A stretch of DNA of 64,000 nucleotides from Patescibacteria group bacterium (GCA_028699085.1 JAQVVF010000002.1:132557-196556); one strand, 5' to 3'. Positions 4,555-59,150 are shown, counted from the stretch's first letter. Numbers and translations: made by a program. The notes: a model not told the origin generated them from the letters alone.

Positions 4555-4875
4555 TTAATTCTTTAATCCTGTACATCGCCAATTAATTTCTGCTGTCTTT
4601 TTTTCTACATCTATCACACAAGCTGGACTGCAACCCTCTTTCTTAGTCTTCAAATCAATCCACCAAGTTCTTGTATTTTCATTACAAGAAATCTCCGCCG
4701 TCAATCCCTCTTTATTACAATCGCTTGCTTGAGCAATTTTCAAAGCATCACTTTGTTTCATTCCTGTTGAATCTTTATTCGTTCCACAACTAAAATTTGC
4801 GATGTCTGTTGATGAACAACCACTAATCATAAAGACTACAAACAACAAACTTCCTACAATAAAAATTTTTTTCAT
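4555..4875 (-). CDS. hypothetical lipoprotein
   Basis: Signal peptide MKKIFIVGSLLFVVFMISGC with lipobox; Cys-containing mature part. Confidence 0.5.
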   Translation of the reverse strand: MKKIFIVGSLLFVVFMISGCSSTDIANFSCGTNKDSTGMKQSDALKIAQASDCNKEGLTAEISCNENTRTWWIDLKTKKEGCSPACVIDVEKKTAEINWRCTGLKN

Positions 4876-4921
4876 TTTTTACTTATTACTTTTACCTTTT
4901 TATTTTTGACTTTTTATTTTT

Positions 4922-5266
4922 TTAACACGTAATATGGAAAAATCCTACTACATCTCTTCCTTCTTTTTCCAATCTATTGTATTCATCAACTGCTTTAGTC
5001 GTATCAGAAATCATAACTTCTAAATTTTTCTCTTTAAAAAATTCCTTTGTTGCATCTGGAACTTTCATTTCTCCTCCATCACCAGTACCAATTACTACAA
5101 ATTTATCTTCTTCGTCCAAATAGTCTTTTACATCGATGACTCTCAATTCATGACCCTCTTCTCGAAACCATTCCTTTGCTAAAATCTCACCAGGCTTAAT
5201 AACAATATCAGACTTATATTCTTTGCCATCAATTAACATTAAACCAAATTCATATCTTTCTATCAT
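4922..5266 (-). CDS. Mth938-like domain protein (DUF498 family)
   Basis: 114 aa; pattern ...VIGTGDGGEMKVP...GFFHITC typical of the Mth938-like fold. Confidence 0.45.
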   Translation of the reverse strand: MIERYEFGLMLIDGKEYKSDIVIKPGEILAKEWFREEGHELRVIDVKDYLDEEDKFVVIGTGDGGEMKVPDATKEFFKEKNLEVMISDTTKAVDEYNRLEKEGRDVVGFFHITC

Positions 5267-14132: not shown

Positions 14133-15853
<1,721 letters not shown>

Positions 15854-30775: not shown

Positions 30776-32383
30776 TTACATCTTCGTCTTCTTTTCAATT
30801 CCCATCAAATTCATTGTCTCTCCCAAAACAGTTCTCGTTGCTTCAACCAATCCTATTCTTACTTTCGTTAATTCCTCATCTTCAGTCAAAACTCTGCACT
30901 TTTCATAAAAATTGTGGAATTTATCTGCAATCGCAATTGCAAAAAAAGGTAATCTTTGCACTTCATAGCTCTTTGCAACTTCAAAAACCACTTCTGGAAA
31001 TTTTAATAACATCTTAACCAACTCAAATTCTGCCTTTCTTTCTTCGTCTGCCGAAGTTTCAGAGAAAACGGATATTTTTTCAGTTTTCACTTCTGTTTTT
31101 TCTAAAATACTTGAAAGTCTAGCATAAGCATATTGAACATAATAAACGGGATTTTTCTTTGATTGTTCTTTTGCCAAATCCAAATTAAAATCCATATGTG
31201 TTTCAACTGCCTTCATCAAAAAGAAAAATCTTGTCGCATCTAATCCAACTTCAGAAACAAGCCAGTCTAAATTTACCACTGTTCCCGCTCTCTTTGACAT
31301 TTTTACTTCTTTCCCGCCAGATATTAATCTAACGAGTTGCGTAATCACAATTTTCAAATCTCCACCTCGATCCATGGCCTTAATTGCTGCCTGCATTCTA
31401 CCCATATAGCCATGATGATCTGCTCCCCAAACATCAACTAATTTATCAAAACCTCGATCAAATTTGTTCCAATGATAAATAATATCTGAGAAAAAATAAG
31501 TTTGCTCGCCAGTATTTCGAATTAATACTCTATCTTTATCATCGCCAAATTTCGTTGTCTTCATCCAAAGAGCATCATCTTTTTTATAAGTTAAGCCCAT
31601 TGTTTCTAACCACTTGATCAATTTCTCTCGAGCTCCCAATGTATATAAACCTTGCTCTGACATCCAGACATCATAATGAATTCCTAAATCTTTTTCAATA
31701 AATTTACGATTAGCTAATTGAATTTTTTCCGCTAATTGAAAACCAGCATCACCCAATTGAGTTGTTTTCCAATATTCTGCTGATCCACTTAATTCTTCAA
31801 TCAATTTCTTTACAAAATCAGTTTTGTATGGATTTTCTTTTCCATGCAAAATTTCACCTAAAGTTTTGATTTGTTTAGAATCTTTAGCATCATTAATATA
31901 AAATTCTCGAGTCACATCAAATCCAGCTTTTTTTAAAACATTAGACAGAACATCTCCATAAAAAGCGCCTCTACCATGACCAACATGTAATTTACCAGTT
32001 GGATTAGCTGAAATAAATTCTACATTTATTTTATTTCTCTTTTCAATTCTTCCTTGTCCATATTTTTCTTTTACTTCCAAAATAGTATTTAACTCATTAA
32101 TTAAATATTTTTCCGATAATTTAAAATTAATAAATCCAGGCTTTACAAAAGTTATTTCTTTATAATCTTCGCTTAATTTTTTAATATCTAATTTTTTTAC
32201 AATTTCTTCTGCAACAATCATTGGATTTTTCTTCTCAATCTTTGCTAAAACCATTGCCACACTACTTGAATAATCACCAAACTCTTCATTTTGTGGCTGT
32301 AAAATAACAATTTCTTTTGGCAAAGAAAAACCAGCCTCTTTGATAGCCGCTTCTAAATTTTTTCTAATCTTATCCTTAATCAT
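30776..32383 (-). CDS. argS: arginyl-tRNA synthetase
   Basis: ISANPTGKLHVGHGRGA (HVGH), C-terminal DALR anticodon-binding region YYVQYAYARLSSIL; 535 aa. Confidence 0.95.
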   Translation of the reverse strand: MIKDKIRKNLEAAIKEAGFSLPKEIVILQPQNEEFGDYSSSVAMVLAKIEKKNPMIVAEEIVKKLDIKKLSEDYKEITFVKPGFINFKLSEKYLINELNTILEVKEKYGQGRIEKRNKINVEFISANPTGKLHVGHGRGAFYGDVLSNVLKKAGFDVTREFYINDAKDSKQIKTLGEILHGKENPYKTDFVKKLIEELSGSAEYWKTTQLGDAGFQLAEKIQLANRKFIEKDLGIHYDVWMSEQGLYTLGAREKLIKWLETMGLTYKKDDALWMKTTKFGDDKDRVLIRNTGEQTYFFSDIIYHWNKFDRGFDKLVDVWGADHHGYMGRMQAAIKAMDRGGDLKIVITQLVRLISGGKEVKMSKRAGTVVNLDWLVSEVGLDATRFFFLMKAVETHMDFNLDLAKEQSKKNPVYYVQYAYARLSSILEKTEVKTEKISVFSETSADEERKAEFELVKMLLKFPEVVFEVAKSYEVQRLPFFAIAIADKFHNFYEKCRVLTEDEELTKVRIGLVEATRTVLGETMNLMGIEKKTKM

Positions 32384-32400
32384 AATATTCTATTAGCAAT

Positions 32401-32847
32401 TTAAATTATCATCTCTGCCCTCTCAATCATTTCAATTTCATTTTCCATCCAATCTAATCTGTTTTTCAAAACCATCTTCTTCGCTTCATTAATTTCTACC
32501 CACAAAACTTCATCGTGTTCTTTGATAAAATCATTTTGCTCTCCATTAATCACAGTAAATAAAAAATAGTTAGTTACTTTTTTTATTGTCGTATCATTTC
32601 TTTCAAATTCCGAATTCAAAAAACCTAAATAACTTTCTAATTTAATTCTGTAACCTGTTTCTTCAATTACTTCTCTTACTGCCGTCTGTTCTAAAGTCTC
32701 ACCATTTTCCACTGTTCCTTTCGGTAGATGATAAGTATCAGTATTATTTCTATGAAGTAAGATGATCTCAATTTTATTATCTAATTTCCTATAAACAATT
32801 CCTCCGCTAGAAACATGAAAAGGAATCTCTCTTGAACCCTTCAACAT
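32401..32847 (-). CDS. NUDIX hydrolase
   Basis: Nudix box GTVENGETLEQTAVREVIEETG. Confidence 0.8.
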   Translation of the reverse strand: MLKGSREIPFHVSSGGIVYRKLDNKIEIILLHRNNTDTYHLPKGTVENGETLEQTAVREVIEETGYRIKLESYLGFLNSEFERNDTTIKKVTNYFLFTVINGEQNDFIKEHDEVLWVEINEAKKMVLKNRLDWMENEIEMIERAEMII

Positions 32848-32993
32848 AACTAAAAACCTAATAAATAAATAACTAGTTTATTAAATTATAGCAAGATTTT
32901 TCAAAAATGAAAGCCAAAAAACAAAAACCTTGACCAATTAACATTTTTATGTAATACTATAAAATCTGTAGCTCCCCAAAGAAGGAGGAAGAG

Positions 32994-33830
32994 TTGATAG
33001 ACGAAAAACACGTTCTTTCACAAGTTCAAACACTTTTTAATGGCAAAGTGAAATATCTTCATCTTGGCTGTCCAAATGATTTTCATCCCAAAAGCAATGG
33101 ATTCAAAGATAGAATGAATCAAGTGCTTGCAATTCTTGGACATCACGAAAATACACTGATTGCTCCAAGAGTTCAATTCACCAATATTATTGCAACCCAG
33201 CAACCCGGTGCCTTTGTTTTCGAAGAAGACAATGGACTCTGGCGAACTTCTGCAGGAGCCGATGGAGTACTTATTCATAATACTGCTCCTGTTGCCATCT
33301 TTAATGCCGATTGTCACGTTGGAATTCTCTATCATCACAAAACCCATCGTTTTGCTTTGATTCATCTTGGCCTAAAATGCTTTTACCGCGAAGATGGATC
33401 ACCGAACATCATCACTCAAGCGATCACTTCTCTTGACGTTTCTGCTCGTGAACTCGAATTCTGGGCTGGAGCAGGAATCGGTCCATGCTGTAATGGCTAT
33501 GACCACTCAGATCCTAAAAACGCTGAATTGGGCAAAAAGCTGAATCAAAAATTTGGTTATGAGGATTTGCCTGTCGTTGGTTACAGATATAAAGATAAAT
33601 ATTGTCATATAACTGGATTTGTCACCAATGGACCAAGAATCGGTCAAATTTCTTATGACAACGGAAGCATGATCTCTAGAATTGGAATTAATCATCCTGG
33701 CATGATGGTAGAACTTGATCCAGGCTGTACTAGCTGTCAAGGACGTGAACAATTTCCTGATCGTCCACAATTTTGGTCAAATGTCCGCGGACACAAAGAA
33801 AGAAACCTCTTCCTTTGCTGGCTCGCCTGA
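32994..33830 (+). CDS. YfiH/PgeF (DUF152, LACC1-like purine nucleoside enzyme) family protein
   Basis: NADCHV (ADC motif), IHLGLK, GIGPCCNGYD (GPxIxxCCYEV-like) align with DUF152 conserved Cys/His; TTG start with strong SD GAAGGAGGAAGAG; apparently higher GC than neighbours. Confidence 0.5.
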   Translation: MIDEKHVLSQVQTLFNGKVKYLHLGCPNDFHPKSNGFKDRMNQVLAILGHHENTLIAPRVQFTNIIATQQPGAFVFEEDNGLWRTSAGADGVLIHNTAPVAIFNADCHVGILYHHKTHRFALIHLGLKCFYREDGSPNIITQAITSLDVSARELEFWAGAGIGPCCNGYDHSDPKNAELGKKLNQKFGYEDLPVVGYRYKDKYCHITGFVTNGPRIGQISYDNGSMISRIGINHPGMMVELDPGCTSCQGREQFPDRPQFWSNVRGHKERNLFLCWLA

Positions 33831-33840
33831 TCTTTCAATA

Positions 33841-33865
33841 CGCTAGTTATCTAGCGTTTTTTATT
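33841..33865 (+). terminator. rho-independent terminator
   Basis: ACGCTAGttatCTAGCGT followed by TTTTTTA. Confidence 0.65.
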
Positions 33866-34010
33866 TGGATTTACATTTTATACCCAATAGGTCCGACCTT
33901 TTACTTTAAAACACAATCATTTCTTTCTAATTAAGATTTTATTAATCCAAATTACAACAACTTTTTAAAAGGTCAAACCTCCTCAGATATTTCATTTGGA
34001 TTTACATTTT
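33864..34010 (+). repeat. 17-nt direct repeat ATTTGGATTTACATTTT (33864-33880 and 33994-34010) with a partial inverted copy between them (TAATCCAAAT ~33946)
   Basis: Exact 17-nt copies 130 bp apart in the smpB upstream region. Confidence 0.5.
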
Positions 34011-34091
34011 TTAACATATATAATATAGTTAGTAATAATTTTAATTTTGAATTGTAATTTTTCATTTTGATTTTTGCATTTTAAATTTACT

Positions 34092-34556
34092 ATGATTTTA
34101 GCCACTAATAAAAAAGCCTATCATGACTATAATATTCTTGAAAAATTAGAGGCTGGCTTAAAATTAGAAGGACAAGAAGTAAAATCTGCCAAACAAAAAA
34201 ATATTAGCTTAAAAGGCGCTTATGTTACAATTAACTATTCCAGTAGAAATCATAGCCCAGAAGCTTGGCTTTTAAATGCCCATATTTCACCTTATAAATA
34301 TGCTGGCAAACTAAAATCTTACGAGCCAACTAGATCTAGAAAGTTGCTTCTAAATAAAAATGAAATATTAAGACTTATTGGCTTAAAAAAGCAAAAGGGC
34401 TTGACATTTATCCCTATTTCAGTTTATACTAAAAAGGGATTAGTGAAACTTTTACTTGGCATTTGCCGCGGCAAGAAATTATACGACAAACGACAAGATA
34501 TCAAAAAAAGAGAAAGTCAAAGAGAAACCCAACGTCTTTTCCGTTCGAAATCGTAG
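34092..34556 (+). CDS. smpB: SsrA-binding protein SmpB
   Basis: ILATNKKAYHDYNILEKLEAGLKLEGQEVKS...RKLLLNKNEILRL...KGLTFIPISVYTKKGLVKLLLGICRGKKLYDKRQDIKKRESQRE; start refined to ATG 34092 (the track's 34074 start is a TTG). Confidence 0.9.
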   Translation: MILATNKKAYHDYNILEKLEAGLKLEGQEVKSAKQKNISLKGAYVTINYSSRNHSPEAWLLNAHISPYKYAGKLKSYEPTRSRKLLLNKNEILRLIGLKKQKGLTFIPISVYTKKGLVKLLLGICRGKKLYDKRQDIKKRESQRETQRLFRSKS

Positions 34557-34595
34557 ACGCATAGGTTTGGAAATTGGAATTTGTATTTTGTTTGG

Positions 34596-35142
34596 TTATT
34601 GATTATTGGTTATTTCTTTCCACGGGGGGTGTCAAGCTTCGCTAAAGAGCGTAGTTTAAAAAATTCATGTAGAGTCGCAAGATACTCTCTAAACTTCTTG
34701 CATATTATAAGTGCAAACTTATTATCAAAGGTTTCTGAAAAAGTAAAAGCTTTTGCTCAATCTTTTTCATTTCAACCTTCAACTGTAATCGCTTAATACC
34801 CGATTACCATCCATCCCGCTAGATTCGTGTGTGGGAATTGGGTGTCATTTTACGAACGTAGATTATCTCTCGCCTTAGAGATAATTGAAAATTATAATGG
34901 CTTTGAGTAATAAATATTTTTTTGGTTTAAAGTTTATTATTCGAGACAACCAAAACCAGATAAACTTGTAAAAGTTTTTTAAGCAAACTTTTTACACATG
35001 GGTGCAATTCCCATCACCTCCACCATCTGAACAAAATAATCAATAATCAATTTCCAAATAATATTCAATAATCAATAACCAAATTTCAAACTTTTTAATT
35101 ATTGATAATTGGTTATTTACTGATTATTGATTATTGGTTATT
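34596..35142 (+). repeat. exact 19-nt direct repeat TTATTGATTATTGGTTATT flanking ssrA (34596-34614 and 35124-35142) plus inverted partial copies (35035-35050, 35067-35084, 35097-35118)
   Basis: Read directly from the sequence; family of TTATTGATTATTGG-like units on both strands around the tmRNA gene. Confidence 0.55.
34625..35025 (+). ncRNA. ssrA: tmRNA (ssrA), one-piece
   Basis: 5' acceptor strand GGGGGTG pairs with 3' CACCTCC (G3:U70) followed by encoded ACCA; T-arm ATGGGTGCAATTCCCAT resembles GGTTCGAnTCC; lies directly downstream of smpB. Candidate tag frame GCT(34749) TTT GCT CAA TCT TTT TCA TTT CAA CCT TCA ACT GTA ATC GCT TAA (34794-34796) gives (A)FAQSFSFQPSTVIA, preceded by an A-rich stretch as in E. 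coli. Confidence 0.8.
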
Positions 35143-35168
35143 AGCCAATATTAGAAGAAATTTTATTA

Positions 35169-35729
35169 ATTAAACCCAAACGTATAAAATATAGATCACA
35201 TTACAAAAGATTCAATCCAAGAAAATTTAAAAGAACTTGGGTTAATGAAGAAATTAGATTACCGCAAGTTGCAGTAATTGATGAAACTGGCAAAAGTCTA
35301 GGAATTCTACCAACTTACAAAGCTATTTCACTAGCAAGAGAAAGAGGCTTTGATCTTGTAGAAGTAGCGCCAGATGTTCATCCTCCAGTCTGTAAATTTT
35401 TAGATTTTGGTAAATATAAATACCAGAAAGAAAAGCAAGAACAGCAACAAAAGAAAAAAGCTAAAAAAGTTGAAATCAAAGGTGTTCGAATCTCACCAAG
35501 AATTTCTGATAATGATCTAGAATTTAAAGCTAAACAAGCTGATAAATTTCTAAGTGATGGCGACAAAGTCAGAATCGAAATAGTCATCAAGGGACGCGAA
35601 AATGCTCACATGGACTTAGTTAATGCAACACTACACCGATTTGTTGATACCATGAAAACTAAGATTAAAGTTGAGCAACAGCCAAAGAGACAAAGACTAG
35701 GTATGGCTATGGTTGTTGCAAAAGCTTAA
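35169..35729 (+). CDS. infC: translation initiation factor IF-3 with non-AUG start (AUU 35169; alternative in-frame AUA 35148 / AUU 35160)
   Basis: Hand translation: (M)KPKRIKYRSHYKRFNPRKFKRTWVNEEIRLPQVAVIDETGKSLGILPTYKAISLARERGFDLVEVAPDVHPPVCKFLDFGKYKYQKEK...RENAHMDLVNATLHRFVDTMKTKIKVEQQPKRQRLGMAMVVAKA aligns with E. coli IF3; the frame opens after TAG at 35142 with no in-frame ATG near the N-terminus; followed by rpmI-rplT. Confidence 0.8.
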   Translation: MKPKRIKYRSHYKRFNPRKFKRTWVNEEIRLPQVAVIDETGKSLGILPTYKAISLARERGFDLVEVAPDVHPPVCKFLDFGKYKYQKEKQEQQQKKKAKKVEIKGVRISPRISDNDLEFKAKQADKFLSDGDKVRIEIVIKGRENAHMDLVNATLHRFVDTMKTKIKVEQQPKRQRLGMAMVVAKA

Positions 35730-35814
35730 AAACCTTGCCAAAAAGCAAGCATTGTGATAACCTACGAAAGACAAGGTGTTTTATTTTTATTATTTTAGAA
35801 TATTATTCAAACAG

Positions 35815-36012
35815 ATGCCTAAACTAAAAACTCATAAATCTACATCAAAAAGATTTTGGAAAACTGGAACAAACAAATTCGCTCAAAGAACTCCAAATCA
35901 AGATCACTTTAATGCAAGAGAAAAAGGTACTGATTCTCGTGCTAAAAAATCTGATAAACTAGTTTTTGCTGGCAATATCAGCCACATCAAAAAATCATTA
36001 CCTTACGTATAA
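35815..36012 (+). CDS. rpmI: 50S ribosomal protein L35
   Basis: MPKLKTHKSTSKRFWKTGTNKFAQRT...; the track ORF carries a spurious N-terminal extension from 35776. Confidence 0.9.
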   Translation: MPKLKTHKSTSKRFWKTGTNKFAQRTPNQDHFNAREKGTDSRAKKSDKLVFAGNISHIKKSLPYV

Positions 36013-36049
36013 ATAAATTTTTAATTTTTAATTTTTTATATTTTAAACA

Positions 36050-36394
36050 ATGCCAAGAGTTAAAAGAGGAACAATAGCTAACAAAAGACGCAAAAAGATT
36101 CTAAAACGCACTAAAGGATATATTACTGGCCGATCAAAAAAATATCGAGCTGCTAAAGAAGCTTATCTTCATGCACAACGATATGCTTTTCGTGACCGCA
36201 AAAAAAAGAAAGCTGATTTTAGACAAGTTTGGATTATCAGACTTAATGCAGCTTTAAAACAATATGATCTATCTTACAGTAAATTTATCTTTGCTTTAAA
36301 GAAACACAAAATTGAATTAGACCGCAAAGTCCTAGCTGATTTAGCTGTTAATCATACTGAAACATTCAAAAAAATTGTTGAAACTGTAAAATAA
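36050..36394 (+). CDS. rplT: 50S ribosomal protein L20
   Basis: MPRVKRGTIANKRRKKILKRTKGYITGRSKKYRAAKEAYLHAQRYAFRDRKKKK... Confidence 0.95.
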   Translation: MPRVKRGTIANKRRKKILKRTKGYITGRSKKYRAAKEAYLHAQRYAFRDRKKKKADFRQVWIIRLNAALKQYDLSYSKFIFALKKHKIELDRKVLADLAVNHTETFKKIVETVK

Positions 36395-36412
36395 TAGACT
36401 TATTAAAAAATT

Positions 36413-36513
36413 AAAGGGGTAAAAAAATATTTTTTATGAATGATGCATGTCCAAAGTTCCGCTTTAGTGGAACAAGTTACAGAATGAATAAAAAATAATT
36501 TTTTACCCCTTTT
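36413..36513 (+). repeat. long-range inverted repeat (AAAGGGGTAAAAAA / TTTTTTACCCCTTT) enclosing a 20-codon mini-ORF and an inner hairpin
   Basis: Arms 36413-36426 and 36500-36513; inner ATG 36436...TAA 36498 encodes MNDACPKFRFSGTSYRMNKK; inner hairpin GTTCCgctttagtGGAAC (36456-36473). Confidence 0.4.
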
Positions 36514-36528
36514 AAAATAAGCAAAATT

Positions 36529-37476
36529 ATGACAATTGAACAAATTTACAAATTATCAATCGAGCTTGGTATAAAAGCAGATCTTCGAAACAAAGAAGAT
36601 ATTAAACGAGTTTTATCCGATGCCAAAAAAGAATATCAGGATTTACCAAAATCTGAAAAAGAATATTTTGATAAAGACAAATTTTTTAATCCATATTCGG
36701 ATACTAGAATTCAAATTGACAAACCAAATAAAAAAATTAAGAAAATTTTAACAGGAATTGATATAGATAGCGCTGAAATATTGTTAGCAGATAAACTAAA
36801 GGTAGATTTAATCATCGCTCATCATCCTGTTGGCAAATCACTTGCTGATGGACTAGAAGATGTCATGAAAATGCAAGCTGATATTTTAGCCGACTATGGT
36901 GTTCCAATCAATATTGCTGAAAAACTAATTGAAAAAAGAATTACTGAAGTATCTCAAAAAGTTAAACCAGCTAATCATTATCAATCAGTTGATACTGCTA
37001 AACTTCTAAATATTGGTCTTATGAACACCCATACAGTTTGCGATAATTTGGCAGCAAAATTCTTAAAAGAATTCTTCGAAAAAGAAAAACCTTATAATGT
37101 CGAAGAAGCTTTGCATTGTTTATTGAAAATTCCTGAATATAAACAAGCCAAAAAAATGGGCTTTGGACCATTTGTCATTGTCGGCAGTCCAAAACATCGC
37201 TTAGGAAAAATTGCAATTACAGAAATAACTGGCGGTACTGAAGGATCTAAGCAAATTTATGAAAAGATGGCCCAAGTTGGCATAGGTACAACTATAGCCA
37301 TGCATTTATCCGAAGAACATCGACAAGAAGCTGAAAAAGCAAATATAAATGTCATTGTTGCTGGACATATCTCATCAGATTCGCTAGGTATGAATTTATT
37401 CTTAGACAAACTAGAACAAAAAGGCATTGAAATAATTCCTTGTTCTGGCCTAATCAGAGTCAAAAGAAAAAAATAA
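36529..37476 (+). CDS. Nif3-like dinuclear metal-centre protein (GTP cyclohydrolase I type 2 homolog family)
   Basis: LIIAHHPVG and C-terminal VIVAGHISSDSLG His-rich metal-site motifs typical of the NIF3/YqfO family; 315 aa. Confidence 0.5.
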   Translation: MTIEQIYKLSIELGIKADLRNKEDIKRVLSDAKKEYQDLPKSEKEYFDKDKFFNPYSDTRIQIDKPNKKIKKILTGIDIDSAEILLADKLKVDLIIAHHPVGKSLADGLEDVMKMQADILADYGVPINIAEKLIEKRITEVSQKVKPANHYQSVDTAKLLNIGLMNTHTVCDNLAAKFLKEFFEKEKPYNVEEALHCLLKIPEYKQAKKMGFGPFVIVGSPKHRLGKIAITEITGGTEGSKQIYEKMAQVGIGTTIAMHLSEEHRQEAEKANINVIVAGHISSDSLGMNLFLDKLEQKGIEIIPCSGLIRVKRKK

Positions 37477-50009: not shown

Positions 50010-50300
50010 ATGGCAACAAAAAAGATTTTGTCCAAATTGTTTATTAGCATGATTGCTCTCTTCATTCTGTTTCCATCAATTTCTTTTGCCAAAGGCAGTG
50101 TTTCAGCAACTTTGACTGTCACTGCAACTGTTGTAAAACCAACAACCTTGCAAATTTCCAAAGTTACTACCAAAGGAGTAGTATCAGACAAAACCTCAAC
50201 AGTGACTTATAACGCCGTTTCTGATGTAGAACCAATTATTGAAGTCAAAAAAGAAATCATCAAAGGGCAATTTGTCGAAATTGTGACTATAACTTTCTAG
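50010..50300 (+). CDS. small secreted beta-rich protein, paralog 1 of 3
   Basis: SD AAGGAGGAGAAAAA; signal peptide cleavage ~SFA/KG; mature ~68 aa; C-terminus KKEIIKGQFVEIVTITF. Confidence 0.6.
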   Translation: MATKKILSKLFISMIALFILFPSISFAKGSVSATLTVTATVVKPTTLQISKVTTKGVVSDKTSTVTYNAVSDVEPIIEVKKEIIKGQFVEIVTITF

Positions 50301-50330
50301 AAATTCCGCAGAAAAAAGGAGAATAAAATA

Positions 50331-50618
50331 ATGACAAAAAAAAGATTGCTTGAATTGCTCATCGCAACATTTGCCTTCCTCATTTTCTTGCCAACAGCTT
50401 CTTTTGCCCAAGGCAGTGGTTCAGGAACAATGATTGTCACTGCAACTCCCGTAAAACCAACAACTTTGCATCTCTCCAAAGCTACTGTCAAAAGAATCGT
50501 CTCCGACAAAACTGTATCAATTAGTTACAATGCCATTTCTGATCTATCGCCAGTAATTGAAGTAAAAAAAGAAATCATCAAAGGACAGTTTGTCGAAATT
50601 GTGACTGTAACTTTCTAG
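50331..50618 (+). CDS. small secreted beta-rich protein, paralog 2 of 3
   Basis: SD AAAAGGAGAATAAAATA; ~65% identity to paralog 1 with identical C-terminal block VIEVKKEIIKGQFVEIVTVTF. Confidence 0.6.
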   Translation: MTKKRLLELLIATFAFLIFLPTASFAQGSGSGTMIVTATPVKPTTLHLSKATVKRIVSDKTVSISYNAISDLSPVIEVKKEIIKGQFVEIVTVTF

Positions 50619-50646
50619 AAATTCCATAGAAAAAAGGAGAAAAAAA

Positions 50647-50940
50647 ATGGCAACAAAAAAAATATTGTCAGGATTATTCTTTGCAATTATCGCCTTCCTC
50701 ATCTTTTTGCCAGCAACTTCTTTTGCCAAAGGCAGTGCTTCAGGAACAATGATCGTCAGTGTCACTGGCGCAGCAAAACCAAAAACATTACAAATCTCCA
50801 AAGCTACTGTCAAAAACATGGCTTCTGATGAAACAATAGAAATCAGATATAATCCAGTATCAGATATAAAACCGCTAATCGAAATCACAAAAAAAATCAT
50901 CAGAGATCAATTTGTTGAAACCATTACTATAATTTTCTGA
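50647..50940 (+). CDS. small secreted beta-rich protein, paralog 3 of 3
   Basis: SD AAAAAGGAGAAAAAAA; most divergent paralog (LIEITKKIIRDQFVETITIIF); followed by a terminator. Confidence 0.6.
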   Translation: MATKKILSGLFFAIIAFLIFLPATSFAKGSASGTMIVSVTGAAKPKTLQISKATVKNMASDETIEIRYNPVSDIKPLIEITKKIIRDQFVETITIIF

Positions 50941-58275: not shown

Positions 58276-59097
58276 TTATTTATTATATCCCTTCAAAATA
58301 AACACTCTATAAAAAGATACTACCAAAATAAAAATTACTGTCCCACACAAAACAATCACTGCTCCACTTGGCAAATCAAAAACATAAGATAAAATCAAAC
58401 CAGACAAAACAGTAATTTCTCCAATTATAATACTTAAAATAATTAACGATTTAAATGACTTAGAAACAATTTTTGCTGTTGAAGCTGGAATTATCAATAA
58501 AGCAGAAACTAATATGATTCCTAAAATTTTTACTCCCAAAACAATTGCGATTGCCAAAAAAACATTAAATAATATTTCAAACAACGAGACATTAATTCCT
58601 GCTAAATAAGCGCCTTCTTTATCAAAAGCAACTAAAGATAATTTTTTATAAAATATAGCTAAAAATATTATTACCACAACAGAAATACTCGCCATCAAAA
58701 TCAAATCATTTATACTAACTGCTAAAATATTACCAAACATAAAACTAATCAAATCAGGCTGATAACCTGATTTAAAGCTCATTAATACAACGCCCAAAGC
58801 TAGACTCGCAGTAAACAAAATTCCAATTATTGCATCAACTGACAGCTTAGTCTTTTTTTCTAAAACATAAATTAATAAAGCAATAATTACACTATAAAAT
58901 ATTGCAATGACCAATGGGTTTAAAGATGCTAAAAGACCAATTGCAATTCCAGCTAATGATGCATGTGCAATTCCATCACCTAAGAAAGACATTCTTTTTA
59001 AGACTGCAAAAACTCCCAAAAATGCCAAAAGCACTGCTAGAATGATTCCAGCAATCAACGCCCTTTGCATAAATGGAAATTGTAGAATTTCGATCAT
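58276..59097 (-). CDS. znuB: metal (Zn/Mn) ABC transporter permease, ABC-3 family
   Basis: 8 TM segments, ZnuB/MntB-like conserved loop; adjacent to the ZnuC-like and ZnuA-like genes. Confidence 0.8.
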   Translation of the reverse strand: MIEILQFPFMQRALIAGIILAVLLAFLGVFAVLKRMSFLGDGIAHASLAGIAIGLLASLNPLVIAIFYSVIIALLIYVLEKKTKLSVDAIIGILFTASLALGVVLMSFKSGYQPDLISFMFGNILAVSINDLILMASISVVVIIFLAIFYKKLSLVAFDKEGAYLAGINVSLFEILFNVFLAIAIVLGVKILGIILVSALLIIPASTAKIVSKSFKSLIILSIIIGEITVLSGLILSYVFDLPSGAVIVLCGTVIFILVVSFYRVFILKGYNK

Positions 59098-59150
59098 TTT
59101 TAATTTTTACTTGCAACTTTTACCTTTTTACTTTTGACTTTTTACTTTTT

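What the first reader, a model, noticed from the sequence alone, without database searches (positions are those of the whole stretch)
34596..35142. Unannotated tmRNA (ssrA) with a non-standard tag candidate, flanked by exact 19-nt direct repeats
ssrA is not in the ORF track; the 71-aa ORF 34581-34796 is actually the tag reading frame. The acceptor stem has G3:U70 (AlaRS identity) and the CCA is genome-encoded. The best tag candidate (A)FAQSFSFQPSTVIA ends in VIA rather than the common LAA. The gene is bracketed by exact direct repeats TTATTGATTATTGGTTATT (34596-34614, 35124-35142), with further inverted copies of the same unit downstream. This could reflect a regulatory array, terminator structures, or the scar of a mobile element, since tmRNA genes are classic integration targets; no integrase is present.
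Basis: partly seen in the sequence, partly recalled or inferred. Interest (0 to 1): 0.55.

Follow-up and report, generated by a model that had tools for sequence, protein, structure and literature searches.

The report
tmRNA gene flanked by heptamer repeats
This is a genuine but ordinary ribosome-rescue RNA gene (tmRNA) of an uncultured Patescibacteria bacterium, with a 27-residue tag, and the repeats around it belong to fast-changing 7-base repeat arrays that fill many gene spacers in this lineage, so they are not a mobile-element scar.

Summary
The tmRNA is real. Rfam RF00023 scores 104.7 bits (threshold 47) at 34625-35025 (+), directly after smpB and before infC-rpmI-rplT. Default ARAGORN misses it and all six close relatives tested, which explains the missing annotation.

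The tag starts at GCA 34713 and is 27 aa: ANLLSKVSEKVKAFAQSFSFQPSTVIA.

The exact 19-mers are real: 34596-34614 and 35124-35142, six related copies in all, none elsewhere in 64 kb. They are not att sites and are not conserved. The closest relative (96% SmpB) has an identical trailer but a different leader array. Other relatives carry different heptamers at the same positions (TTGGTAA, TTAACTG, CCAACAA, AATTTCT).

Period-7 arrays are a genome-wide trait: 11 in the window against 0 in shuffles. They fill transcribed spacers such as the smpB 5'UTR.

The inverted arrays after ssrA form a long AU-rich hairpin, and some hairpin at this position recurs in relatives. Leader-trailer pairing is strong here (-40 kcal/mol) but not conserved.

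Verdict: new member of known kinds, low to moderate interest.

The parts
34001..34029 (+). smpB promoter-like element, TTTACA-N17-TATAGT
   Evidence: Consensus scan. Relatives keep TTTACA-N17-TATAAT at the same place.
34037..34088 (+). Period-7 array (AATTTTG-like) that makes up the whole predicted smpB 5'UTR
   Evidence: TRF finds 7.7 copies. Every relative has a heptamer array at this position with a different unit, such as ATTCGTA or ATTCGCA.
34092..34556 (+). smpB, the SsrA-binding protein and partner of tmRNA
   Evidence: Pfam SmpB 170 bits. Homologues are 96-71% identical in Patescibacteria metagenomes.
34401..34430 (+). TTGACA-N18-TATACT inside smpB, a candidate internal ssrA promoter
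   Evidence: 11 of 12 consensus matches. Both hexamers are unchanged in six lineages (the window and five relatives), and the surrounding 54-nt segment differs at only 0-4 positions; L089 has TTGACT with the same TATACT. Function is inferred.
34592..34614 (+). Leader heptamer array A (TTGGTTA/TTGATTA units), containing the upstream exact 19-mer 34596-34614
   Evidence: TRF period 7 and exact match. Absent in the closest relative L081, which has TTGGTCA/TTGGTAA units here.
34625..35025 (+). ssrA (tmRNA), 401 nt, with encoded CCA
   Evidence: RF00023 104.7 bits. ARAGORN -ps gives the same coordinates.
34713..34796 (+). Tag reading frame: resume codon GCA 34713-34715, 27 codons (ANLLSKVSEKVKAFAQSFSFQPSTVIA), stop TAA 34794-34796
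   Evidence: ARAGORN -ps. A 27-codon frame is conserved in 7 lineages with 8 synonymous and 8 conservative changes.
35035..35083 (-). Trailer array B, with heptamer units in inverted orientation (AATAATC on the + strand). It is G-free and forms the left arm of the trailer hairpin.
   Evidence: TRF and the repeat finder. It pairs with array C or with leader A.
35094..35142 (+). Trailer array C, with direct heptamer units, containing the downstream exact 19-mer 35124-35142. It forms the right arm of the trailer hairpin.
   Evidence: The B:C hairpin is -28.3 kcal/mol, z = -5.7.
35184..35723 (+). infC (IF3) without a canonical start codon. The probable start is ATA 35184; ATT 35169 is an alternative.
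   Evidence: Pfam IF3_N and IF3_C. The frame opens at 35145 with no ATG/GTG/TTG. Conservation of the N-terminus across relatives.
36413..36515 (+). Long hairpin ending in a U-run after rplT, the probable terminator of the smpB-ssrA-infC-rpmI-rplT unit
   Evidence: -35.7 kcal/mol, z = -6.2. Conserved in L084 with a different apical hairpin, z = -8.1.

Best explanation
The locus is a standard one-piece tmRNA gene in a conserved smpB-ssrA-infC-rpmI-rplT cluster of an AT-rich, Shine-Dalgarno-poor Patescibacteria (CPR) bacterium.

How the tmRNA works (inferred from established tmRNA biology):
- It is charged with alanine through its G3:U acceptor stem.
- It enters stalled ribosomes together with SmpB.
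- Translation resumes at GCA 34713 and adds a 27-residue degradation tag.

What the 19-nt 'bracketing' repeats are:
- They are pieces of heptanucleotide (TTATTGR) simple-sequence arrays.
- Arrays of this kind fill many transcribed intergenic spacers and 5'UTRs in this genome and its relatives.
- Their units turn over quickly, most likely by replication slippage, ectopic conversion and recombination between strains.
- They are not specific to ssrA and are not integration scars.

Likely local role (inferred):
- Downstream of ssrA, two arrays in opposite orientation form a roughly 108-nt AU-rich hairpin (35035-35142), starting 9 nt after the CCA.
- This hairpin most likely acts on the RNA as a boundary or processing element between the stable tmRNA and the infC message. 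No canonical terminator lies between ssrA and infC; the first one follows rplT.
- The upstream copy is a strain-specific variant of the leader array. Its 29-bp pairing with the trailer is a by-product.
For: tmRNA identity:
- CM score and full-length alignment.
- Adjacent SmpB.
- Synteny in all close relatives.
- The tag is conserved as coding sequence.

Arrays are a general, fast-evolving class:
- TRF finds 11 period-7 arrays scoring at least 40 in the window, against a mean of 0.0 (maximum 1) in 20 dinucleotide shuffles. Period 7 is the dominant period.
- The lag-7 autocorrelation peak in intergenic DNA persists with the ssrA region removed, z = 3.8.
- Orthologous spacers in relatives hold heptamer arrays with different units.
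- L081 (96% SmpB) differs from the window at only 2 positions in 34620-37040 but has a different leader array.

Arrays are transcribed:
- The smpB array lies exactly between a conserved -35/-10 promoter and the ATG.

Trailer hairpin:
- Window -28.3 kcal/mol, z = -5.7.
- L086 -27.5, z = -4.95; L087, with an unrelated sequence, -18.6, z = -4.4; L088 z = -4.7; L084 z = -1.8.

Terminators:
- No terminator-like site lies between ssrA and infC.
- A strong hairpin ending in a U-run follows rplT.

Precedent:
- Heptanucleotide repeats are the most abundant long simple-sequence repeat class in many bacteria, attributed to polymerase slippage.
- TAACTGA arrays sit just upstream of start codons in Beggiatoaceae, Cyanobacteria and Bacteroidetes that lack Shine-Dalgarno sites (PMC4679880; also PMC4692102).
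Against: - No transcript data exist. The transcription unit, processing sites and any role of the hairpin are inferred.
- The trailer hairpin has no G+C-rich stem or U-tract. In L084 it is weak (z = -1.8).
- Between the window and L086 I found only one compensatory pair change, alongside two disruptions.
- The upstream 19-mer copy is seen only in this window and could not be confirmed in an independent assembly. The best SmpB match in the database is 96% identical.
- Slippage alone does not explain why arrays persist at the same positions while their units change. Some selection on the arrays is possible.
Confidence: 0.75

Rival explanations
1. The leader array (34588-34620) and trailer array (35029-35061) pair to form a processing stalk. 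This would extend the acceptor stem in the way rRNA leader-trailer helices do, so that RNase III excises pre-tmRNA from a polycistronic smpB-ssrA-infC transcript.
For: The minimum-free-energy fold of 34557-35150 contains 29 leader-trailer pairs: 18 U-A, 4 A-U, 5 G-C/C-G and 2 G-U. It gains 21 kcal/mol over the separately folded parts. The duplex is -40.2 kcal/mol, z = -7.0. L081, with a different leader, still places 41 leader-trailer pairs in its fold and gains 15 kcal/mol.
Against: The pairing is not conserved. Cognate duplexes in L084, L086, L087, L088, L089 and L001 are no better than shuffles (z = 0 to +1.3). Non-cognate leader and trailer combinations are often as strong or stronger, for example L089 with L087 at -33.9 and L081 with L089 at -29.1. 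This points to generic GU-rich versus CA-rich array complementarity rather than co-evolution. L086 shares the trailer palindrome but has no complementary leader.
Confidence: 0.12
2. The 19-mers are DNA-level regulatory sites, either shared promoter or operator elements upstream of ssrA and infC or binding sites for a repeat-recognising protein. The array copy number would tune expression, as in SSR-dependent phase variation.
For: Both exact copies lie just upstream of a gene: 10 nt before ssrA and about 40 nt before the infC start. Heptanucleotide repeats in a promoter or 5'UTR control hmw1A expression in Haemophilus influenzae (PMC8262952, PMC12721329). Many units contain TTG, which resembles a -35 element.
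Against: The promoter scan finds no acceptable -35/-10 pair on the + strand in either spacer. The unit sequence is not conserved even at 96% SmpB identity, which a specific binding protein would not tolerate. In L084 the smpB-ssrA spacer is only 43 nt.
Confidence: 0.1
3. The direct repeats are att-type scars of an integrative element or MITE that targeted ssrA.
For: tmRNA genes are classic integration targets (general knowledge). The repeats are exact and direct. A more distant relative (L094) does carry a GIY-YIG ORF between ssrA and infC.
Against: The repeats do not include any ssrA 3' sequence. Only ssrA itself lies between them. There is no integrase among the neighbours. Gene order and spacing are the same in relatives lacking the bracket. 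No other copy exists in 64 kb.
Confidence: 0.03

Closest known systems
One-piece bacterial tmRNA (Rfam RF00023), in particular the long-tag tmRNAs of Patescibacteria/CPR
   Same: It aligns to the full model and has a G3:U acceptor stem, a T-arm, a resume codon in a UAAGU|GCAAAC context, and a stop codon in the following hairpin. smpB is adjacent. The tag shares the K-x-AFA...hydrophobic-A pattern with relatives: ANNVLAKVKAAFSLPAFAPVVA, ANSLVSRIKNAFAFSPALAIA, AKTLVRKMKTAFANAFAPQLATALA.
   Different: The tag is longer: 27 aa against 19-25 in the other CPR loci seen here, and 10-11 in E. coli-type tags (the E. coli figure is from my own knowledge). The RNA is AT-rich (34% G+C) and scores lower, 104 bits against 109-169. 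It falls below ARAGORN's default threshold, as does its whole clade. CCA is encoded here and in L081 but not in the next five lineages.
Heptanucleotide long simple-sequence repeats: TAACTGA arrays of Beggiatoaceae, Cyanobacteria and Bacteroidetes (PMC4679880); cyanobacterial STRR heptamers (from memory, not tested)
   Same: They are tandem 7-nt units in intergenic DNA, often running up to start codons of genes without Shine-Dalgarno sites. They occur in ribosomal-protein and translation-factor operons and are strongly over-represented relative to chance.
   Different: Many different units are used in one genome rather than one dominant heptamer, and the units are replaced between close strains. 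Arrays are often paired in inverted orientation, giving long AU-rich hairpins. The host is a Patescibacteria lineage, for which I found no report. The L084/L088 unit TTAACTG differs from TAACTGA.
rRNA-type leader-trailer processing stalks (RNase III substrates)
   Same: In this strain a 29-bp helix can form between sequences directly flanking a stable RNA, next to its terminal stem.
   Different: There is no conservation or covariation across relatives. Cleavage is untested.
Integrative elements with att sites in ssrA
   Same: Direct repeats near a tmRNA gene.
   Different: The repeats are outside the gene. There is no integrase, no cargo and no empty-site versus filled-site difference.

Membership tests
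tmRNA (RF00023) | Covariance-model score at or above the curated gathering threshold over the full model | tested here: met
   104.7 bits against 47, model positions 1-374 of 374.
tmRNA (RF00023) | tRNA-like domain: 7-bp acceptor stem with G3:U, T-arm, discriminator and CCA | tested here: met
   GGGGGUG pairs with CACCUCC, followed by A and CCA. ARAGORN -ps draws the tRNA domain.
tmRNA (RF00023) | Resume codon followed by a short in-frame tag ORF that evolves as coding sequence | tested here: met
   GCA at 34713, with 27 codons in 7 lineages. There are 8 synonymous and 8 conservative changes, including synonymous changes at codons 7 and 12.
   Default settings give 0 genes for the window and 0 of 6 for close relatives. 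With -ps (95% thresholds) the window and 5 of 6 relatives are called. This is a sensitivity limit rather than evidence of absence.
tmRNA (RF00023) | SmpB partner present | tested here: met
   smpB ends 68 nt upstream; Pfam 170 bits.
tmRNA (RF00023) | Alanylation and trans-translation tagging activity | not testable with these tools
   Needs biochemistry or proteomics.
Integrative element att sites at ssrA | The direct repeat duplicates the 3' part of ssrA | tested here: not met
   The repeats lie at 34596-34614 and 35124-35142, both outside 34625-35025.
Integrative element att sites at ssrA | Integrase or cargo between or beside the repeats; an empty site in relatives | tested here: not met
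   The neighbours are housekeeping genes. Relatives lacking the bracket have the same gene order.
Heptanucleotide simple-sequence repeat arrays (LSSR; TAACTGA- or STRR-like) | Tandem 7-nt period, in excess over chance genome-wide | tested here: met
   11 period-7 arrays with TRF score at least 40, against 0.0 in shuffles. Lag-7 autocorrelation z = 3.8 outside the ssrA region.
Heptanucleotide simple-sequence repeat arrays (LSSR; TAACTGA- or STRR-like) | Polymorphic between close relatives | tested here: met
   The leader array differs at 96% SmpB identity. Units differ in every lineage.
Heptanucleotide simple-sequence repeat arrays (LSSR; TAACTGA- or STRR-like) | Unit identical to the described TAACTGA family | tested here: not met
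   The units here are TTATTGR, AATTTTG and TTTTTAC, among others. L084 and L088 have TTAACTG. It is the same kind of feature but not the same family.
Leader-trailer processing stalk (RNase III type) | Leader-trailer complementarity | tested here: met
   29 bp, duplex -40.2 kcal/mol, z = -7.
Leader-trailer processing stalk (RNase III type) | Conservation or covariation of the helix in relatives | tested here: not met
   Six other lineages show z >= 0. Non-cognate pairs are as strong as cognate ones.
Intrinsic terminator | G+C-rich stem followed by a U-run directly after ssrA | tested here: not met
   No + strand site lies between 35026 and 35184. The hairpin is AU-rich and is followed by AGCCAAU.

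The most novel reading that the evidence does not exclude
In this Patescibacteria clade, heptanucleotide arrays may form a functional RNA-level punctuation system rather than neutral slippage products. They would replace Shine-Dalgarno leaders and classical terminators in short spacers. Single arrays would serve as unstructured ribosome- or S1-loading leaders. Inverted array pairs would serve as hairpins that separate stable RNAs such as tmRNA (and tRNAs in L001) from neighbouring messages in polycistronic transcripts. Selection would act on period and strand composition rather than on unit sequence. In this strain, that arrangement would include an RNase III-type leader-trailer stalk around pre-tmRNA.
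Probability: 0.15. Interest if true: 0.6.

Novelty: new member of a known kind. Interest (0 to 1): 0.27.

Why it matters
Practical value:
- A whole clade of Patescibacteria tmRNAs is invisible to ARAGORN at default settings. Genome annotations of these organisms will therefore wrongly lack ssrA. Covariance-model searches recover them.
- The corrected 27-residue tag extends the set of long CPR tags. It gives a concrete peptide to look for in metaproteomes.

The flanking repeats:
- They are a reminder that exact repeats next to a tmRNA gene are not necessarily integration scars.
- Here they expose a lineage-wide habit of building spacers and 5'UTRs from rapidly changing 7-nt arrays in a genome with few Shine-Dalgarno sites.
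- This is a known class of feature that appears not to have been described in this phylum. It could bear on how these reduced genomes start translation and process transcripts.

Tried and rejected
- Default ARAGORN: no call. I treated this as a sensitivity failure because the covariance model, synteny and tag conservation all agree.
- Leader-trailer processing stalk: attractive from the fold, but it failed the cognate versus non-cognate and shuffle tests in relatives.
- att site or MITE: rejected on anatomy and synteny.
- Canonical promoter or terminator in the two spacers: none found on the + strand.
- GTDB representative genomes by SmpB: the closest is only 58% identical, which is too distant for comparing flanks.
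- Metagenome scan with a clade-specific tmRNA 3' pattern: it returned only a contig I already held.
- Covariation in the trailer hairpin: only two distinct homologous sequences were available, giving one compensatory change and two disruptions, which is uninformative.
- Literature searches for heptamer arrays or tmRNA flanks in Patescibacteria: nothing specific found.
- Sub-threshold Rfam search of 33800-36700: only a chance-level AU-hairpin match (RF04343) at the rplT terminator.

Full report
**Observation**

Rfam's tmRNA model (RF00023) matches window 34625-35025 on the + strand over its entire length. The score is 104.7 bits against a gathering score of 47. It is the only RNA family found in the 64 kb.

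The sequence shows a 7-bp acceptor stem, GGGGGUG pairing with CACCUCC, with G3:U. It is followed by discriminator A and an encoded CCA at 35023-35025.

The 71-aa ORF 34581-34796 from the mechanical ORF list ends in the tag frame.

The 19-mer TTATTGATTATTGGTTATT occurs exactly at 34596-34614 and 35124-35142. Four more copies with 1-3 mismatches lie between 35035 and 35135, two of them inverted. There are none elsewhere in the window. That is 6 matches against 0.33 expected by chance.

**ARAGORN**

At default thresholds ARAGORN reports nothing for the window or for six close relatives. With thresholds lowered to 95% (-ps) it calls a tmRNA at exactly 34625-35025.

I treat it as a sensitivity failure for three reasons: the covariance model is decisive, smpB lies 68 nt upstream (Pfam 170 bits), and the gene is syntenic in all relatives. 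This behaviour also explains why the gene was not annotated.

**The tag**

Relaxed ARAGORN and the Rfam alignment both place the resume codon at GCA 34713, in the context UAUAAGU|GCAAAC. The tag is ANLLSKVSEKVKAFAQSFSFQPSTVIA, 27 residues, with stop TAA at 34794.

I retrieved loci encoding SmpB proteins 96, 90, 84, 84, 78 and 73% identical to the window's. All carry a tmRNA scoring 85-104 bits.
- All seven lineages have a 27-codon frame starting at the same GCA AAC.
- Five of the relatives, compared with the window, show 8 synonymous and 8 conservative differences.
- The synonymous differences include codon 7 (GUU/GUC/GUG) and codon 12 (AAA/AAG).

The ending VIA is not exceptional for this group. 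Relatives end in VVA, VAV, VAA, AIA, AYA or ALA. More distant Patescibacteria tags share a K-x-AFA core and are 19-25 residues long.

**Context**

The cluster is argS(-), NUDIX(-), a Cu-oxidase_4 domain gene, smpB, ssrA, infC, rpmI, rplT and NIF3. It is conserved in the relatives. There is no integrase.

Source names for homologues say 'Patescibacteria group bacterium'. The closest GTDB representative has only 58% SmpB identity.

**The repeats**

The 19-mer is built from a 7-nt unit, TTATTGR. There are three blocks:
- A: 34592-34614, direct orientation, in the smpB-ssrA spacer.
- B: 35035-35083, inverted orientation, starting 9 nt after the CCA.
- C: 35094-35142, direct orientation, ending just before infC.

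Comparison with relatives is decisive.
- L081-L083 are three independent assemblies with 96% SmpB identity. They have a trailer identical to the window's but a different leader array (TTGGTCA/TTGGTAA units), so the exact bracket is absent.
- L084 and L088 have (TTAACTG)5-6 after ssrA.
- L089 has (CCAACAA)n.
- L087 has inverted AATTTCT arrays.
- L086 has a diverged homologue of the B:C palindrome, and its leader has unrelated ATTAGCA-type units.

The window and L081 differ at 2 positions between 34620 and 37040 but at about 430 positions between 31654 and 34620. The leader array therefore sits at a recombination boundary.

**The repeats are a genome-wide class**

TRF finds 11 period-7 arrays scoring at least 40 in the window. 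In 20 dinucleotide-preserving shuffles the mean is 0.0 and the maximum is 1. No other period comes close.

Intergenic DNA shows a lag-7 autocorrelation peak even with the ssrA region removed, z = 3.8.

Upstream of smpB, a conserved TTTACA-N17-TATA(A/G)T promoter is followed by a 5'UTR made entirely of a heptamer array reaching the ATG. Its unit is different in every relative. The rpmI-rplT spacer is another array.

Shine-Dalgarno-like motifs precede only 5 of 51 ORFs.

This matches a described class:
- Heptanucleotides are the most abundant long simple-sequence repeats in many bacteria and are attributed to polymerase slippage.
- TAACTGA arrays sit directly upstream of start codons lacking Shine-Dalgarno sites in Beggiatoaceae, Cyanobacteria and Bacteroidetes, including in ribosomal-protein operons (PMC4679880; see also PMC4692102).
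- Heptanucleotide repeats in a 5'UTR or promoter modulate hmw1A expression in Haemophilus (PMC8262952, PMC12721329).

The units here differ from those families. I found no report of the phenomenon in Patescibacteria.

**RNA structure hypotheses**

The trailer alone folds into a long AU-rich hairpin, B paired with C, at -28.3 kcal/mol and z = -5.7.

Hairpin potential at this position recurs in relatives despite unrelated sequences:
- L086: -27.5 kcal/mol, z = -4.95.
- L087: z = -4.4.
- L088: z = -4.7.
- L084: weaker, z = -1.8.

No canonical terminator separates ssrA from infC. The first strong hairpin ending in a U-run follows rplT at 36413-36515 and is conserved in L084.

I therefore infer that smpB, ssrA and infC-rpmI-rplT can be co-transcribed. 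I also infer that the trailer hairpin acts as a processing or stability boundary. This is inference only; no transcript data are available.

Folding the whole precursor instead pairs leader A with trailer B: 29 pairs next to the acceptor stem, a 21 kcal/mol gain, and a duplex of -40.2 kcal/mol at z = -7. That would resemble an rRNA-type RNase III stalk. However:
- Cognate leader-trailer duplexes in six other lineages are no better than shuffles.
- Non-cognate combinations are often as strong as cognate ones.

The complementarity therefore reflects generic pairing between GU-rich and CA-rich arrays, not co-evolution. I keep the stalk as a minority rival.

**Rejected readings**

The repeats are not att scars. 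They do not overlap ssrA, they enclose nothing but ssrA, no integrase is nearby, and relatives without the bracket have the same layout.

They are not recognisable sigma-70 promoters or intrinsic terminators.

An assembly artefact is unlikely for the trailer, which was reproduced in three samples. The upstream copy exists only in this window and could not be confirmed independently.

**Verdict**

This is a bona fide, previously unannotated tmRNA with a corrected 27-aa tag. It is a new member of a known family.

The flanking 19-mers are strain-specific pieces of heptanucleotide simple-sequence arrays that pervade spacers in this lineage. They are a new member of a known kind of repeat.

Interest is low to moderate. 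The practical point is ARAGORN's blindness to this clade. The open question is whether the arrays have an RNA-level function.

Noticed in passing
window 35145-35723: infC (Pfam IF3_N and IF3_C) has no ATG/GTG/TTG start in its open frame. The conserved N-terminus begins at ATA 35184 (ATC in L087); ATT 35169 is an alternative. Gene callers skipped the gene in L081/L082 and mis-started it in L084 and L086.
   Followed up: partly
window 34401-34430: A TTGACA-N18-TATACT promoter-like element lies inside the smpB coding sequence. Both hexamers are unchanged in six lineages (the window and five relatives), and the surrounding 54-nt segment differs at only 0-4 positions; L089 has TTGACT with the same TATACT. 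It is a candidate internal promoter for ssrA.
   Followed up: partly
window 31654-37040 compared with L081: Divergence is mosaic: 2 differences downstream of 34620 against about 430 upstream, concentrated in patches (33800-34100, 32100-32500, 33100-33500). This suggests strain recombination with a breakpoint at the ssrA 5' flank.
   Followed up: partly
window 36413-36515: A long hairpin, AAAGGGGUAAAAAA...UUUUUUACCCCUUUU, lies between rplT and the NIF3 gene (-35.7 kcal/mol, z = -6.2). It is conserved in L084 with a different apical hairpin (z = -8.1) and is probably the operon terminator. It gives only a sub-threshold Rfam match (RF04343, 40 bits against 55.8).
   Followed up: partly
window 4869-4922, 14687-14737, 59097-59150: Three similar TTTTTAC arrays with a 21-nt super-period. 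Two fill spacers directly upstream of minus-strand start codons. One lies inside an ORF, where one frame reads as a Lys-rich stretch.
   Followed up: partly
window 50073-50815: A 318-nt tandem repeat, 2.3 copies at 80% identity (TRF score 914), in a region of short ORFs.
   Followed up: no
window, all ORF starts: Shine-Dalgarno-like motifs (GGAG/GAGG/AGGA/AAGG at -20 to -4) precede only 5 of 51 ORFs of at least 100 aa. Upstream regions are A/T-rich and often have a 7-nt period.
   Followed up: partly
L094 2427-3040; L096 1676-1870: In relatives with 63-64% SmpB identity, the ssrA 3' flank carries CGTAAAAT(C/T)(A/G)C...G(T/C)(G/A)ATTTTACG inverted repeats. In L094 a GIY-YIG ORF lies between ssrA and infC. 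This may be a small mobile or homing element next to ssrA.
   Followed up: no
L084, L086, L087, L088, L089 tmRNA 3' ends: CCA is not encoded in these lineages (ATTT, ATTA, ACTC, ATAA, ATTA follow CACCTCC). The window and L081 encode ACCA, so the requirement for 3' maturation differs between close relatives.
   Followed up: partly
L001 3937-4130: In the 58%-identity relative, heptamer arrays (AGACGAC x3 and TAATTGA-type) also fill the spacers between ssrA and two tRNA genes. A 9-mer inverted array forms a hairpin just upstream of ssrA (z = -4.4).
   Followed up: partly
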